Assembly: GCF_009914755.1 (NCBI RefSeq)
Contig: NC_060932.1
Length of the DNA stretch: 64,000 nt
Direction: 5' to 3' (one strand)
Origin: the human T2T-CHM13v2.0 reference genome, Homo sapiens
The translations under genes were made by a program, and so were the position numbers. The number at the start of each line of letters is the position of its first letter. Position 1 is the stretch's first letter. The notes beneath the pieces were generated by a model. That model saw nothing but the letters and a program-made list of their open reading frames with translations. It made no database searches and had not been told where the DNA came from. Positions 38,155-45,000 of this stretch are shown one piece after another.

Positions 38155-40390
38155 TCTTAGTTGTGTATGCACCTAACAAAAGAACTACACAAAAATATCA
38201 GTAAGGGTATAGAACATCTGAACATCACTATCAATCAAATTGACCCAACTGACATTTATAAGACAACTACCTAAATACAACATATAACACCTTTTTACGT
38301 GGAACATTGACTAAGACAAGCTATATTCTCAGCCATAAAACAAATGTAGAATAATTGAACTAAAATAAACTAGACTTTCTGATCATAAAAGTATTAAACA
38401 GGAAGTCAAAACCAGAAATCAGTAACAGAAAGACCACTGGAAAAAAAAATCACTAAATGTTTTTTACAAAAGCAAATTAAACCTAAAGTAAGAAGAACAT
38501 AATAAAGATGAAATTACAAATCAATGAACTTAGAGAAAACCAATGAATCAATCAATACAATTCATAAAATAAAAGGCTGAGTATTTTTTTAAAAAAATTA
38601 AAAATAGATAAAGCATGGACAGGCTGACCTGCAAAAGACAAAGAGAGGGGCAAAGAGAGAGAGAGAATGACACCAATTACCAACACCAGGAATGAAAGTG
38701 AAGCATCACTACTGATCCCACAGACATTAAAAAGACATAGATAATAATACTGTCAAGTAAATACAGCTGCTGTGAAATTCAGTGCAACTGAAACTCACAT
38801 ACATTTCTGGTGGCAATGCAAAATGGTAGAGCAAGTTTGGCACATTGGAAAAGAGGTTTGGCAGTTTCTTCCAAAGTTAAACATACATTTACCATAGGAT
38901 CAAGCAATCACTGTTCTGGATGTTTACCCAAGATAATTGAAAACACAAATCCACATAAAACCTCTACAAAAATGGTTATAGCAGGTTTATTCATAATGAC
39001 CAAAAGCTAGAAAGAAGCCAAACAACCATTTGTAGGTAAATAAATAAGTCATTGTACATCCCTACAATGAGAATCTCAGCAAAGAAACAACTGAGCAATA
39101 AGTAAAATCAAACTACTGATGTGTGCAACAATATGAATTAAACTAAAAAACATTACACTAAGTGAAAGAAGCCAGATACAGAAAGCTATATACAATGTGA
39201 TTTTATTTATATGACATTTTACAAAAGGCGAAACTATTGGTTTTGAAATAATTGGTTTCCAGGAGCTGTGTTTGGGGAATTTGATCAGTTTTGCCTGTTA
39301 TTTGAACTTTATATAAATATAACAATATAGCATTTCTGCTTTTATAGGTCTATTTTTTTAGTCAGCATCGTTTGTGATCTTCATTTATACTTTAGTGTAT
39401 AGAGTTTTTACATTCTCATTGCTATATGGTATCTTAGTGTGTACATATACTACAATTTACATATCAAATAATTGACTGCTGTTGTCCCATACTAGCCTAA
39501 TTGGCTAATATTCTCATCTAAGCCTTATCTATATCTCACAAAACCTAAATGGAGTTTTCATTACCAAATCAACTCTTAAACAGACATGAGAATTCAATAT
39601 GTATCTATCAAATGCATTGACTTCTTTTATGAAAAATATTAATTTCCCTTTATCATTCAGACAGTTTGGGATTCCCCCCCCCGAGTTATTATCACATGTA
39701 CCTTGCCACTACCTACCCAATCCCAAGTTTGTTTTCTATGGAATTTCCTTTATCCCAATATAATTCTAATTTAGAGTCAAAGGTATGTTCATCCTTTTCA
39801 CCTCTGAGAGTCAATAATTTCAAAATATTCATCTTCTAGATTATGGTAGCCTTGGCACCCTCCCCAAATACAATAAAATATTACTTTAAAGTGAAGGAAA
39901 AGGGAGTGTTGGCTTTCAGTTTGAATACAACCTAGCTGATGAATTCTGTCCCAAACAATGACTGCAGTGAATCAAGGTATCTGGGCTACAAGGTAAAACG
40001 TTTGAGAGGGTTACCTACATTTACTATGTAGATAAAGCCACAGATATGTGGGCTCATTTTAAATGTAGAGGTTCTGGCAGGAGTGCAATGAAATAATCTT
40101 TTGAACCACACTGTAGTGAATGTTTCTGAGTCACAGAAACATGCACACATCAAGGTAACACAGGTTTAAACTTGATTGAGTATTGAGTTTTGCATTTTAT
40201 TGTTGCAGTGAAAATCATGTCATGAATACATCATCTATTTCTCCATATAAAGATGTTCCTAATTAATCTGTTATTCAAAAGCTTATGTAAGTAACTGCAT
40301 TTTTTTCATGACATTGACTAAAGCCCAGAAACAGGTTTCTGTGTCCTAATTAATTCTTTTAAAGGCTTTCCTCAGCGGGATGTCACCTAC

Positions 40391-40560
40391 CTGGATCTTT
40401 GAATGAAAGGATATTAATGAAGCTGCAATGCAGATGATTATATTGAAAGTGATGAAGAATTTATTAGGAAGACAGCCATCACAGGCTGTGTAGTATATGA
40501 GGCATAAAACTGCTATAAGTAATGACAGAGTGTAGTTTAGGCAAGTAATGGGCAGCAGGG
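40391..40560 (-). pseudogene. SERINC-family (serine incorporator/TDE) internal coding exon of an unrecognised paralog; relic or unannotated gene
   Basis: Acceptor ccttttgtag|CC, donor CAG|gtaggt, 170 bp, phase 1 to 0. Encodes (A)LLPITCLNYTLSLLIAVLCLIYYTACDGCLPNKFFITFNIIICIAASLISFHSKIQ, ungapped and about half identical to the SERINC1/SERINC3 segment ending in PKIQ (recalled sequences). Confidence 0.85.
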
Positions 40561-41335: not shown

Positions 41336-42069
41336 CTATGGTAAGTGGTCAAGCAATTATTATTATCATTAATATCAGTACATTCTAGGTATTTTCATAA
41401 TGGATATTGGCGTCGCAGTTCTGGATGAGCAGCAAAGTACAATTTAATTTCCATCAGAAATTCTCATCCCAGCTTTATTTCTAAAGTTAAAGTTCTGAAG
41501 GTTAACTTGTATCTCTAAGGTATGTAATTAAATTGACAGCTAGTAGGATTTTACCCAAATGCTTTCCAAAAATTCTTGTCTTTTGTGATATTTCGAAAGT
41601 GAGTATAAAATAGGACTATAATCTGAAGCAAAATTGGATCTTAAGAGACAAAACAGATATTTACCAAACATTCTATTCTGAATTTAAAATCTCTCTTATT
41701 TAAAGTCAATCACAGAGAGAACAGGATCAAGATAGTCATTTTAAGTAGATAGTCACAGGGAAATTATTGAGAGAATGACATCTTAGCCACTGCCTGAAAG
41801 AAGTGAAAATACAAGGTGTGTGAGACTCAAAGGAAAAAAAAAAACAAAACATTTTAGGTAAAGGGAAAAGCCAGTGCCAACACTCTACTATAGAAACAGA
41901 AGCATGCCATAAGTTGGTGGGAGAAGTTCACCATGGGTGCAGGTGATCAGGTGTGCATTGTCTATAGAAAATTGTACAACCATAATAAAATTGATTAAAA
42001 TCAAATTATCTCCTGCACTGACAATTGTAAACATTATCCCTGATAAAATACTTCATGAAAAAAAGGGTT

Positions 42070-45000
42070 GGGGAGGTGGAGCCAAGATGGCCAAATAGGA
42101 ACAGCTCCGGTCTACAGCTCCCAGCGTGAGCCACGCAGAAGACGGGTGATTTCTGCATTTCCATCTGAGGTACCGCGTTCATCTCACTAGGGAGTGCCAG
42201 ACAGTGGGCGCAGGACAGTGGGTGCAGTGCGCTGTGCAGGAGCCGAAGCAGGGCGAGGCACTGCCTCACTCAGGAAGCGCAAGGGGTCAGGGAGTTCCCT
42301 TTCCTAGTCAAAGAAAGGGGTGACAGACGGCACCTGGAAAATCGGGTCACTCCCACCCTAATACTGCGCTTTTCCGATGGGCTTAAAAAAACGGCGAACC
42401 AGGAGATTATATCCCGCACCTGGCTTCGAGGGTCCTACGCCCACAGAGTCTCCCTGATTGCTAGCACAGCAGTCTGAGATCAAACTGCAAGGCTGCAGCG
42501 AGGCTGGGGGAGGGGCGCCCGCCATTGCCCAGGCTTGCTTAGGTAAACAAAGCAGCTCGAACTGGGTGGAGCCCACCACAGCTCAAGGAGGCCTGCCTGC
42601 CTCTGTAGGCTCCACCTCTGGGGGCAGGGCACAGACAAACAAAAAGACAGCAATAACCTCTGCAGACTTAAATGTCCCTGTCTGACAGCCTTGAAGAGAG
42701 CAGTGGTTCTCCCAGCACCCAGCTGGAGATCTGAGAACGGGCAGACTGCCTCCTCAAGTGGGTCCCTGACCCCTGACCCCTGAGCAGCCTAACTGGGAGG
42801 CACCCCCCAGTAGGGGCAGACTGACACCTCACACGGCTGGGTACTCCTCTAGACAAAACTTCCAGAGGAACGATCAGACAGCAGCATTTGCGGTTCATGA
42901 AAATCCGTTGTTCTGCAGCCACCGCTGCTGGTACCCAGGCAAACAAGGTCTGGAGTGGACCTCCAGCAAACTCTAACAGACCTGCAGCTGAGGGTCCTGT
43001 CTGTTAGAAGGAAAACTAACAAACAGAAAGGACATACACACCAAAAACCCATCTGTACATCACCATCATCAAAGACCAAAAGTAGATAAAACCACAAAGA
43101 TGGGGAAAAAACAGAGCAGAAAAACTGGAAATTCTAAAAAGCAGAGCGCCTCTCCTCCTCCAAAGGAACGCAGTTCCTCACCAGCAATGGAACAAAGCTG
43201 GACGGAGAATGAATTTGACGAGTTGAGAGAAGAAGGCTTCAGACAATCAAACTACTCCGAGCTACAGGAGGAAATTCAAACCAAAGGCAAAGAAGTTAAA
43301 AACTTTGAAAAAAATTGAGATGAATGTATAACTAGAATAACCAATACAGAGAAGTGCTTAAAGGAGCTGATGGAGCTGAAAGCCAAGGCTCGAGAACTAC
43401 GTGAAGAATGCAGAAGCCTCAGGAGCCGATGCGATCAACTGGAAGAAAGGGTATCAGTGATGGAAGATGAAATGAATGAAATGAAGCGGGAAGGGAAGTT
43501 TAGAGAAAAAAGAATAAAAAGAAACGAACAAAGCCTCCAAGAAATATGGGATTATGTGAAAAGACCAACTCTACATCTGATTGATGTACCTGAAAGTGAC
43601 GGGGAGAATGGAACCAAGTTGGAAAACACTCTGCAGGATATTATCCAGGAGAACTTCCCCAATCTAGCAAGGCAGGCCAACATTCAGATTCAGGAAATAC
43701 AGAGAACGCCACAAAGATAAACCTGGAGAAGAGCAACTCCAAGACACATAATTGTCAGATTCACCAAAGTTGAAATGACGGAAAAAATGTTAAGGGCAGC
43801 CAGAGAGAAAGGTTGGGTTACCCACAAAGGGAAGCCCATCAGACTAACAGCGGATCTCTTGGCAGAAACTCTACAAGCCAGAAGAGAGTGGGGGCCAACA
43901 TTCAACATTCTTAAAGAAAAGAACTTTCATCCCAGAATTTCCTATCCAGCCAAAACTAAGCTTCATAAGTGAAAGAGAAATAAAATCCTTTACAGACAAG
44001 CAGATGCTGAGAGATTTTGTCACCACCAGGCCTGCCCTACGAGAGCTCCTGAAGGAAGCACTAAACATGTAAAGGAACAACCGGTACCAGACACTGCAAA
44101 ATCACGCCAAATTGTAAAGACCATCGAGGCTAGGAAGAAACTGCATCAACTAACAAGCAAAATAACAAGCTAACATCATAATGACAGGTTCAAAGTCACA
44201 CATAACAATATTAACTTTAAAGGTAAATGGACTAAATGCTCCAATTAAAAGACACAGACTGGCAAATTGAATAAAGAGTCAAGACCCATCAGTGTGCTGT
44301 ATTCAGGAAACCCATCTCACGTGCAGAGACACACATAGGCTCAAAATAAAAGGATGGAGAAAGATCTACCAAGCAAATGGAAAACAAAAAAAGGCAGGGG
44401 TTGCAATCCTAGTCTCTGATAAAACAGACTTTAAACCAACAAAGATCAAAAGAGACAAAGAAGGCCATTACATAATGGTAAAGGGATCAATTCAACAAGA
44501 AGAGCTAACTATCCTAAATATATATGCACCCAATACAGGAGCACCCAGATTCGTAAAGCAAGTCCTGAGTGACCTACAAAGAGACTTAGACTCCCACACA
44601 ATAATAATGGGAGACTTTAACACCCCACTGTCAACATGAGACAGAACAACGAGACAGAAAATTAACAAGGATACCCACGAATTGAACTCAGCTCTGCACC
44701 AAGCGGACCTAATAGACATCTACAGAACTCTCCACCCCAAATCAACAGAATATACATTTTTTTCAGCACCACACCACACCTATTACAAAACTGACCACAT
44801 ACTTGGAAGTAAAGCTCTCCTCAGCAAATGTAAAAGATCAGACATTATAACAAACTGTCTCTCAGACCACAGTGCAATCAAACTAGAACTCAGGATTAAG
44901 AAACTCACTCAAAACTGCTCAACTACATGGAAACTGAACAACCTGCTCCTGAATGACTACTGGGTACATAATGAAATGAAGGCAGAAATAAAGATGTTCT

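What the first reader, a model, noticed from the sequence alone, without database searches (positions are those of the whole stretch)
40346..42525. L1 antisense promoter/ORF0 donor is in frame with the SERINC-like exon: possible L1-rescued fusion peptide
Seen: the full-length L1 is on the plus strand, so its antisense promoter points toward the SERINC-like exon. ORF0 starts at 42525 and stays open up to CAG|GTGCGG at 42420/42419 (CDS nt 106, phase 1). The SERINC-like acceptor is also phase 1, so removing an 1859-nt intron (42419-40561) gives MAGAPPPASLQPCSLISDCCASNQGDSVGVGPSKP-A-LLPITCLNY...KIQ. If the next donor is skipped, the frame continues VGDIPLRKAFKRIN*. The ORF0 frameshift lies downstream of the donor and so does not affect the fusion. 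Known: primate L1 ORF0 donors splice to nearby exons to make fusion proteins. Inference: an hominoid-age L1 could supply promoter and start codon to an orphan exon with two hydrophobic helices. A phase match has a 1-in-3 chance prior, so this is a hypothesis only.
Basis: partly seen in the sequence, partly recalled or inferred. Interest (0 to 1): 0.72.

Follow-up and report, generated by a model that had tools for sequence, protein, structure and literature searches.

The report
L1 beside ancient SERINC exon relic
A great-ape-age L1 element lies just upstream of a leftover exon of a lost SERINC gene that is conserved between humans and birds; the two could be spliced in frame on paper, but nothing shows that they are.

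Summary
Every coordinate in the finding holds. The ORF0 ATG is at 42525. The CAG|GT donor follows 42420 (phase 1). The AG acceptor lies before 40560 (phase 1). The intron would be 1859 nt and the joined frame is open. The splice signals are good: this is the best donor in the antisense L1 5'UTR, and the exon is the best-defined one in the next 15 kb.

"L1-rescued" is not supported. The exon is the only SERINC-like piece on chr8. It lies about 250 kb upstream of PKIA on the opposite strand, as SERINC1 does to PKIB and SERINC3 to PKIG. It is 82% identical to a snowy-owl sequence but about 50% to its human paralogues. It therefore predates the L1, which I identify as an L1PA3, by about 300 My.

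One mammal-like ortholog carries a frameshift inside the exon, which suggests non-coding constraint: an exonic remnant of whole-genome duplication.

No gene is annotated here. No L1 chimeric transcript is catalogued between chr8 77.8 and 80.9 Mb (hg19) in a brain/glioma survey. Most antisense L1 RNAs are unspliced, and many start downstream of the ORF0 AUG.

The in-frame fusion is a one-in-three coincidence that remains untested. I put a translated fusion at about 3%.

The parts
42072..48254 (+). Full-length, dead L1 with an A-rich tail. I identify it as the L1PA3 at hg19 chr8:79,262,742-79,268,895 (3.9% divergence).
   Evidence: The 5' end GGAGGTGGAGCCAAGATGG begins at 42072. The 7-bp target-site duplication GGGTTGG lies at 42065-42071 and 48255-48261 (read). 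ORF1 and ORF2 are in many pieces. The subfamily comes from Pinson Table S1; matching that row to this element relies on recalled PKIA coordinates.
42358..42525 (-). ORF0-type antisense ORF, 55 codons plus stop
   Evidence: It is the first ATG for any antisense start between 42526 and 42886. No Pfam family matches.
42414..42422 (-). Antisense splice donor CAG|GTGCGG; last exon base 42420, phase 1
   Evidence: It has the best donor score in the antisense 5'UTR, 10.76 bits; the others score 5.1 to 8.1.
40561..42419 (-). Hypothetical 1859-nt intron. It holds a competing acceptor at 41793, AATAAA at 41479 and 40999, and (TA)n runs.
   Evidence: Splicing to 41793 would close the frame after 38 codons.
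40391..40560 (-). Orphan SERINC-type exon (homolog of the SERINC1/3 exon covering Pfam positions 181-238). It is a remnant of a lost fourth SERINC1/3-type ohnolog.
40561..40574 (-). Polypyrimidine tract and AG acceptor (ctctccttttgtag), at the same position and phase as in SERINC1 and SERINC3
40385..40390 (-). The exon's own donor GTAGGT, at the same position as in SERINC1 and SERINC3 (after ..KIQ)
   Evidence: 11.12 bits
40346..40390 (-). Read-through tail (VGDIPLRKAFKRIN, then stop) if the exon donor is not used
40196..40201 (-). AATAAA hexamer about 190 nt beyond the exon; a possible poly(A) signal for a two-exon RNA

Best explanation
Two unrelated elements lie next to each other by chance.

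(a) The exon at 40560-40391 is the sole surviving exon of a fourth SERINC1/3-type gene. That gene arose in the vertebrate whole-genome duplications and was later lost from this locus. The exon has been kept under constraint since before the mammal-bird split. It is most likely kept as a non-coding DNA element in the ZFHX4-PKIA gene desert, an 'exonic remnant' of the kind thought to carry cis-regulatory function. Its open frame and splice signals survive as a by-product.

(b) A full-length L1PA3 inserted 1.5 kb away in the great-ape lineage and has since decayed. Its antisense promoter and ORF0 point at the exon. The ORF0 donor and the exon acceptor share phase 1, so a 92-106 aa fusion can be written. 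That is a one-in-three coincidence. The fusion is probably not made at any meaningful level, and it does not explain why the exon is preserved.

Shown: the geometry, the homology, orphan status, synteny, deep conservation, and absence from one transcript catalogue. Inferred: non-coding constraint, regulatory role, and absence of the spliced RNA.
For: Orphan status. The six-frame Pfam Serinc scan of the whole assembly lists 54 matches at E<=10, and exactly one is on chr8. A tblastn of all 16 SERINC1 and SERINC3 exon peptides against the window finds only this exon, at E 3e-17 and 2e-15. The next minus-strand non-repeat hit is at E 0.06 and is not collinear. P0007 is a 440-aa multi-exon relative. 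Its best human hit is this exon (E 4.5e-17, 62%), and none of its other 29 listed matches is on chr8.

Synteny. The PKI family has three hits: chr8 79,029,914 (+), chr6 123,906,122 (+) and chr20 46,350,332 (+). Each lies 100-260 kb beyond a minus-strand SERINC match.

Lineage. In a tree of 91 exon peptides, human plus P0001-5 form a clade with support 100/98. With P0006, P0007, P0011 and P0068 they form a 10-row clade (100/91). That clade is separate from the SERINC1 clade (24 rows, 100/98) and the SERINC3 clade.

Age. The exon is 82% identical to a Bubo scandiacus record (P0003). It is 81% identical to P0004, whose flanks also translate as ..PFVA and QVG... Identity to human SERINC3 and SERINC1 is 53% and 50%. 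Exon boundaries and phases are identical to SERINC1 and SERINC3.

Non-coding constraint. In P0049 the first 25 exon codons are read in human frame 2 and the last 32 in frame 0, so there is an indel inside the exon, yet the letters stay close to human.

Against use of the fusion. Pinson 2022 Table S2 has no chimera between hg19 chr8 77,814,555 and 80,888,222, while the L1 itself is in their Table S1. Only 44 of 1509 chimeras were spliced at the 5' end. Among intergenic L1s, 635 produced chimeras and 5359 never did. Criscione 2016 reports 57 of about 3200 ORF0 loci seen fused to an exon and a primary antisense start at about nt 400. There is no RefSeq gene (hub note).
Against: In human the exon keeps an open frame, an AG and a strong GT. 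It also keeps 17 of the 19 columns that are at least 85% conserved in 81 other SERINC exon peptides. That is equally what a still-coding exon would show.

Exon-versus-flank differences in the mammal-like orthologs are not significantly different: 5/57 vs 16/77, p=0.09; 11/57 vs 5/37; 1/57 vs 2/59. So constraint within primates is not demonstrated.

The P0049 frameshift rests on one unnamed contig and could be an assembly error.

Only proteins could be compared for the other species, not DNA, so synonymous and non-synonymous change could not be separated. The databases hold only open frames, which biases towards intact copies.

The splice signals really are good, so an antisense RNA that reached the exon could well include it.

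The one negative transcript catalogue covers only brain, glioma and glioma stem-cell lines. It does not cover testis, embryonic stem cells, placenta or demethylated tumours. Its supplementary figures (pptx) could not be read.
Confidence: 0.75

Rival explanations
1. The reader's hypothesis is right in restricted settings. When the L1PA3 antisense promoter is derepressed (early embryo, germ line, hypomethylated tumours), transcripts starting upstream of 42525 splice 42420 to 40560. They are translated into an ORF0-SERINC-hairpin peptide of 92-106 aa.
For: Geometry and frame are confirmed. The donor is the best in the antisense 5'UTR, and the exon is the only well-paired acceptor and donor in 15 kb (1 of 19 strong acceptors). 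The ORF0 AUG is in good context and is the first AUG for starts between 42526 and 42886. AATAAA at 40201 could end a two-exon RNA. ORF0-exon fusions are documented: 57 loci (Criscione 2016 passages), and two donors within ORF0 (review PMC13517631 passages).
Against: There is no gene model (hub note). There is no chimeric transcript in the Pinson catalogue for this region. Only 2.9% of chimeras are spliced at the 5' end. Producing L1s sit in transcribed loci, and this one is in a gene desert. The primary start at about nt 400 lacks the AUG. AATAAA at 41479 and 40999 and a stronger acceptor at 41793 lie in the way. The 5'UTR CpG observed/expected ratio is down to 0.38. All onward splices tested from the exon's donor hit stops within 2-33 codons.
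Confidence: 0.06
2. The exon is still a working exon of an unannotated, conserved amniote transcript (coding or non-coding). That transcript has its own upstream promoter beyond the L1, and the L1 simply landed in its intron.
For: The open frame, the AG and the GT are kept at the ancestral positions in human, and by translation in bird-like P0004. 17 of 19 family-conserved columns are kept. An annotation pipeline called it a partial protein in Bubo scandiacus.
Against: No other SERINC exon is found anywhere on chr8. RefSeq has no model in 64 kb (hub note). There is a frameshift in P0049. The owl record is only 56 aa and partial, so the pipeline found nothing to join it to.
Confidence: 0.12
3. 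The exon is an ordinary, neutrally decaying fragment of a recently dead or duplicated SERINC gene, and its open frame is luck.
For: Exon and flank differ from the closest orthologs at similar rates (1/57 vs 2/59; 11/57 vs 5/37).
Against: It is 82% identical to a bird sequence but 50-53% to the human paralogues. It clusters with bird sequences with support 100/98. It belongs to a lineage distinct from SERINC1 and SERINC3, so it is not a recent copy. All other exons have gone while this one is kept.
Confidence: 0.03

Closest known systems
L1 ORF0-exon fusion transcripts and L1 antisense chimeric transcripts (Denli 2015, recalled, not held; Criscione 2016 PMC4908685, passages read; Pinson 2022 PMC9396940, abstract, sections 6, 10 and 23, Tables S1 and S2 in part)
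   Same: An L1PA1-8 type 5'UTR with an ORF0 AUG in good context. A GT donor inside ORF0. A downstream exon on the same strand whose acceptor phase matches.
   Different: No RNA, ribosome or peptide evidence. The target is not an exon of any annotated gene. The L1 sits in a gene desert and is absent from the one catalogue checked. I could not confirm that 42420 is the published SD1.
Exonic remnants of whole-genome duplication / regulatory coding exons (Dong 2010 PMC2831330, abstract and passages; Touceda-Suarez 2020 PMC7530604, passages)
   Same: A single exon of a lost duplicate gene survives in a gene-poor block next to retained neighbours. It is conserved far beyond neutral expectation while all other exons are gone.
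   Different: Those 38 cases come from the teleost duplication, and 28 of them have a broken splice site or frame. This one dates to the older vertebrate duplications and is intact in human. The 2020 systematic search reported one high-confidence remnant of that age (a FAM172A paralogue near NR2F2). Neither paper mentions SERINC, by text search. No enhancer test exists here.
Homologous exon of human SERINC1 and SERINC3 (Pfam PF03348 positions about 181-240; SERINC3 residues 198-262 in 7rug)
   Same: Same length class, same acceptor phase inside an Ala codon, same donor after KIQ, and 50-53% identity. The neighbouring PKI gene is in the same orientation.
   Different: It stands alone and belongs to a separate fourth lineage. 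It cannot form a SERINC fold: 58 of 434 profile positions.

Membership tests
L1 ORF0 fusion locus | L1PA1-8 5'UTR carrying an ORF0 start codon in a strong context | tested here: met
   ATG 42525, gggcaATGg, 55-codon ORF. L1PA3 by Pinson Table S1. ORF0 is said to occur in L1HS and L1PA2-8.
L1 ORF0 fusion locus | Splice donor inside ORF0, upstream of its stop | tested here: met
   CAG|GTGCGG after codon 35, the best donor in the antisense 5'UTR. Its identity with the published SD1 is not verified.
L1 ORF0 fusion locus | Downstream acceptor in matching phase giving an open fused frame | tested here: met
   Phase 1 on both sides; 106 open codons with read-through.
L1 ORF0 fusion locus | Junction-spanning RNA reads, ribosome footprints or peptides | not testable with these tools
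   No expression data are on hand. Indirectly negative: no RefSeq gene (hub note) and no entry in Pinson Table S2.
LCT-producing L1 (Pinson 2022 catalogue) | Listed with a chimeric transcript in Table S2 | tested here: not met
   No chr8 row between 77,814,555 and 80,888,222 (hg19). The L1 is in Table S1 at 79,262,742.
Serinc protein family (Pfam PF03348) | Match above the gathering score | tested here: met
   46.5 bits against 24, E 3.4e-12.
Serinc protein family (Pfam PF03348) | Full multi-pass protein covering the profile | tested here: not met
   Only profile positions 181-238 of 434 are covered. No other exon on chr8.
Exonic remnant of whole-genome duplication | Homology to an exon of retained paralogues in a paralogous gene neighbourhood | tested here: met
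   SERINC(-)...PKI(+) on chr6, chr20 and chr8. Identical exon boundaries.
Exonic remnant of whole-genome duplication | The other exons of the host gene are absent | tested here: met
Exonic remnant of whole-genome duplication | Conservation beyond neutral over deep time | tested here: met
   82% aa identity to Bubo scandiacus and 81% to P0004. Clade support 100/98.
Exonic remnant of whole-genome duplication | Coding ability abolished (broken splice site, indel or stop) | tested here: inconclusive
   Intact in human and in P0001-5. Frameshift within the exon in P0049, on a single unnamed contig.
Exonic remnant of whole-genome duplication | Not transcribed or spliced; acts as a cis-regulatory element | not testable with these tools
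   No expression, chromatin or reporter data are available here.

The most novel reading that the evidence does not exclude
In great apes, the antisense promoter and ORF0 start codon of an L1PA3 have captured a surviving exon, conserved between humans and birds, of a lost fourth SERINC ohnolog. The exon's frame and splice sites were preserved for other reasons. In cells where the L1 is derepressed, this would yield a lineage-specific membrane-hairpin microprotein of 92-106 aa: 35 residues of ORF0 followed by two SERINC helices.
Probability: 0.03. Interest if true: 0.6.

Novelty: new member of a known kind. Interest (0 to 1): 0.3.

Why it matters
As a fusion-protein candidate it matters little. 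It is one more paper splice among thousands of ORF0-bearing L1s, with no expression evidence.

The context is more useful. A single exon of a lost SERINC ohnolog has survived from before the mammal-bird split with frame and splice sites intact, in the gene desert upstream of PKIA. This would be a rare example of an exonic remnant from the early vertebrate genome duplications. One systematic search reported only a single high-confidence case (passages).

Such remnants separate the coding and non-coding constraints on an exon and can point to hidden enhancers. The locus also shows how a young retrotransposon can place a promoter, a start codon and a donor in front of a splice-competent relic. 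That arrangement is the raw material for gene birth, whether or not it is used here.

Tried and rejected
(1) tblastn of all stop-to-stop frames of the SERINC1 and SERINC3 gene regions against the window was swamped by Alu translations. I replaced it with exon-only queries.

(2) I first thought that Glu-to-Pro in C-x-E-N-K, shared by human and bird, showed loss of SERINC function before the amniote split. I dropped this because Glu is found in only 48 of 81 other sequences at that column.

(3) I rejected the reading as a neutral pseudogene fragment because of the bird identity.

(4) The positions of the two published ORF0 donors could not be found. Denli 2015 and Matlik 2006 are not held, a further search gave nothing, and Criscione 2016 has no occurrence of the word 'donor'.

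(5) Phrase searches across spreadsheet cells found nothing because phrases do not span cells. Number-prefix searches did not show chr8 rows. I read the table parts directly instead.

(6) The repeat finder at a minimum length of 10 did not report the 7-bp target-site duplication. I read it from the sequence.

(8) I made no fold of the fusion peptide, because a joined sequence is not a sequence of the window.

(9) DNA of the non-human orthologs could not be fetched, so I made no codon-position test.

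
Full report
THE OBSERVATION.

I read the minus strand of 40200-42700 and listed ORFs under the standard code. The ATG at 42525 opens a 55-codon frame that closes at 42358. Its context is gggcaATGg. No other ATG lies between 42886 and 42526. 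It is therefore the first AUG for any antisense RNA that starts in that span.

The frame passes CAG|GTGCGG with the last exon base at 42420. That is coding nucleotide 106, phase 1. The run ctctccttttgtAG ends at 40561 and the exon starts at 40560. The Ala codon is split G|CC, again phase 1. The intron would be 1859 nt.

The exon is 170 nt (40560-40391) and ends AAG ATC CAG|GTAGGT. If that donor is ignored, the frame runs on for 14 codons to a TAA ending at 40346. ORF0 part, exon and tail together are open for 106 codons. Every number in the finding is right.

ARE THE SIGNALS BETTER THAN CHANCE?

The phase match is one in three. I scored all GT and AG on the minus strand of the window with simple weight matrices. 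The frequencies were recalled from memory, so the scores are approximate.

- The 42420 donor scores 10.8 bits, the 99.7th percentile. It is the best of seven candidates in the antisense 5'UTR; the others score 5.1 to 8.1.
- The acceptor scores 10.8 bits (99.4th percentile).
- The exon's own donor scores 11.1 bits (99.9th percentile).

Nineteen acceptors between 42418 and 27000 score within one bit of the acceptor or better. Only this exon has a donor above 9.1 bits lying 40-400 nt downstream. So an antisense RNA that reached it could plausibly include it.

Obstacles lie in the way. A closer and slightly stronger acceptor sits at 41793; splicing there closes the frame after 38 codons. AATAAA hexamers sit at 41479 and 40999. 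Beyond the exon, the seven onward acceptors I tried all give stops within 2 to 33 codons. An AATAAA at 40201 could end a two-exon RNA.

THE L1.

The element starts at 42072 and runs to an A-rich tail ending about 48254. It is flanked by GGGTTGG at 42065-42071 and 48255-48261. Its ORF1 and ORF2 are in many pieces. The 5'UTR holds 30 CpG in 1028 nt, observed/expected 0.38.

Table S1 of Pinson 2022 lists a plus-strand L1PA3 of 6154 bp at hg19 chr8:79,262,742-79,268,895, with 3.9% divergence. I take this to be the same element. It is the only listed L1 whose distance to the PKIA coding exon (247.8 kb in this assembly) falls inside PKIA as I recall its hg19 coordinates. That link is an inference.

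THE EXON.

The 103-aa frame matches Pfam Serinc at E 3.4e-12, 46.5 bits against a cut-off of 24, profile positions 181-238 of 434. It matches human SERINC3 (7rug) residues 198-262 at E 2.7e-13.

A six-frame scan of the whole assembly with the Pfam model lists 54 matches at E<=10. They are the exons of SERINC1 (chr6), SERINC2 (chr1), SERINC3 (chr20), SERINC4 (chr15) and SERINC5 (chr5), a few weak hits, and exactly one match on chr8, which is this exon.

A tblastn of the 16 SERINC1 and SERINC3 exon peptides against the 64-kb window finds only this exon. Identity is 53% to SERINC3 (E 3e-17) and 50% to SERINC1 (E 2e-15). The next minus-strand hit that is not simple repeat is at E 0.06 and is not collinear.

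The acceptor and donor sit at exactly the same positions and phases as in SERINC1 and SERINC3. It is therefore an unprocessed, orphan exon.

WHERE IT COMES FROM.

The PKI family has three hits in the assembly: chr8 79,029,914, chr6 123,906,122 and chr20 46,350,332, all on the plus strand. Each lies 100-260 kb beyond a minus-strand SERINC match (SERINC1, SERINC3, and this exon). The arrangement SERINC(-)...PKI(+) is thus present three times.

SERINC1, 2 and 3 are classed as ohnologs, and tetrapods are said to have five SERINC genes (passages of PMC8316019). The chr8 exon fits the missing fourth copy.

A search of 1.84 billion cluster representatives gave 93 hits at E<=0.001. I made a tree of 91 exon peptides over 57 columns. 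Nine hits were dropped for gaps or short overlap, and the human chr8 exon and three human anchors were added. With so few columns, many forks are unresolved.

- Human and five close sequences (P0001-5) form a clade with support 100/98.
- With P0011, P0068, P0006 and P0007 they form a clade of ten (100/91).
- That clade is apart from the SERINC1 clade (24 rows, 100/98) and from the SERINC3 clade (4 rows, 99/88).

P0007 is a 440-aa multi-exon SERINC. Its best match in the human genome is this exon (E 4.5e-17, 62%). None of its other 29 listed matches is on chr8.

HOW OLD, AND WHY KEPT.

The word-indexed search found five close relatives.

- P0001 (98%), P0002 (91%) and P0005 (81%) have translated flanks that also resemble the human intron.
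- P0004 is 81% identical.
- P0003 is 82% identical and is named by its source 'unnamed protein product, partial [Bubo scandiacus]'. It lies on a 171-Mb contig.

P0004's flanks translate as ..PFVA before the exon and QVG.. after it, as in human. This suggests that the pyrimidine tract, the AG and the GTAGGT are kept too.

Identity of 82% between human and an owl, against about 50% to the human paralogues, cannot be neutral decay over roughly 320 My (divergence time recalled). The exon's frame and splice signals therefore predate the L1 by about 300 My. 'L1-rescued' cannot explain them.

CODING OR NON-CODING CONSTRAINT?

This is not settled.

For coding: the frame and both splice sites are intact in human. 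Human keeps 17 of the 19 columns that are at least 85% conserved among 81 other SERINC sequences.

For non-coding:
- All other exons are gone.
- The owl record is a bare 56-aa fragment.
- RefSeq has no model in the window (hub note).
- In P0049 the first 25 exon codons are read in human frame 2 (2 differences) and the last 32 in frame 0 (8 differences). An indel therefore sits inside the exon while the letters stay close to human. This rests on one unnamed contig.

Exon and flank differ from human at rates that are not significantly different in the mammal-like sequences: 1/57 vs 2/59; 5/57 vs 16/77, p=0.09; 11/57 vs 5/37. I could compare only proteins, not DNA, and the databases hold only open frames. 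The test that would decide this is named under next steps.

The closest described kind is the 'exonic remnant' of whole-genome duplication. Dong 2010 described 38 teleost cases, of which 28 have broken coding ability (abstract and passages). Touceda-Suarez 2020 reported a single high-confidence remnant of early-vertebrate age in a systematic search (passages). Neither paper mentions SERINC or PKIA. My searches for SERINC together with PKIA, ohnolog, remnant, gene desert or ZFHX4 listed no title or abstract that describes this exon. I read passages of only one of those papers.

IS THE FUSION MADE?

No expression data are available here, so I used published base rates and one catalogue.

- Criscione 2016 (passages): ORF0 occurs in L1HS and L1PA2-8. 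Of about 3200 ORF0 loci, 57 were seen fused to an exon. The primary antisense start is at about L1 nt 400, which is downstream of the ORF0 AUG (about nt 454 in this copy). Many antisense RNAs therefore lack the AUG.
- A review states that ORF0 contains two donors (passages). I could not verify their positions.
- Pinson 2022 (abstract, sections 6, 10 and 23): about 17% of L1PA1-7 elements gave chimeric transcripts in brain and glioma. Only 44 of 1509 chimeras (2.9%) were spliced at the 5' end. Producing elements lie in transcribed loci. Among intergenic elements, 635 produced chimeras and 5359 never did.
- Their Table S2 has no entry on chr8 between 77,814,555 and 80,888,222 in hg19 (parts 24 and 25). 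This L1 is in their Table S1.

This is a real negative, but a narrow one. It covers three normal brains, eight gliomas and glioma stem-cell lines. It does not cover testis, embryonic stem cells or demethylated tumours. The paper's supplementary figures could not be read.

VERDICT.

The splice logic is sound, and the in-frame join is a one-in-three coincidence. The exon is a deeply conserved remnant of a lost SERINC ohnolog and owes nothing to the L1.

I put about 6% on a reproducible 42420-to-40560 junction RNA that is translated into the fusion peptide in some cell type, about 3% on the bolder lineage-specific capture reading given as the novel case, and well under 1% on a selected function. 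As a fusion candidate the finding is ordinary. The exon's history is the more interesting result and deserves its own follow-up.

Noticed in passing
window 40391-40560 (-); G000 chr6 123.63-123.91 Mb; chr20 46.24-46.35 Mb; chr8 78.78-79.03 Mb: The arrangement SERINC (minus strand) followed 100-260 kb later by a PKI gene (plus strand) occurs three times: SERINC1-PKIB, SERINC3-PKIG, and orphan exon-PKIA. The orphan exon is the relic of a fourth ohnolog, 82% identical to a snowy-owl sequence.
   Followed up: yes
P0049 against window 40370-40830 (-): An unnamed ortholog with mammal-like flanks reads the first 25 exon codons in human frame 2 and the last 32 in frame 0. That means an indel inside the exon. 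It could be real loss of coding ability in that lineage or an assembly error.
   Followed up: partly
P0005 against window 40367-40648 (-): This ortholog has 11 of 57 exon codons changed but only 5 of 37 flank codons. It has more change in the exon than the bird sequence does, although its flanks are human-like. This is unexplained; fast evolution, editing or sequencing error are possible.
   Followed up: no
window 40460-40465 (-): The Asn-Lys codons of the conserved NKFF motif spell AATAAA on the transcribed strand. The exon therefore carries a poly(A) hexamer inside itself.
   Followed up: no
window 41170-41330: Long (TA)n and TATA-rich runs lie in the would-be intron. They gave spurious tblastn hits to a low-complexity SERINC1 intron frame.
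   Followed up: no
window 37811-38180 and 30000-30334: Alu elements supply strong antisense-Alu-type acceptors on the minus strand (38058, 38034, 30284, 30210). The 30284/30210 pair has a 9.1-bit donor at 30053. These are the likeliest onward exons for any RNA running this way.
   Followed up: partly
window about 42845-42975 (+): The L1 5'UTR carries a segment of about 130 nt that, from memory, is absent from L1HS and is the ZNF93 target lost in the youngest L1PA3 and later families (Jacobs 2014, recalled, not checked). If so, this copy would be repressed in embryonic stem cells.
   Followed up: no
G000 chr7:38023551-38023853 (+) and chr17:56060152-56060469 (-): Two weak Pfam Serinc matches at about the 24-bit cut-off, with internal stops, lie outside the five known genes. 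They may be old SERINC fragments or chance hits.
   Followed up: no
P0007 residues 1-105: The intact relative of the chr8 lineage has about 105 N-terminal residues with no SERINC similarity before the usual CLCSSAPC start. It ends early, at about profile position 300. It is probably a faulty gene model.
   Followed up: no
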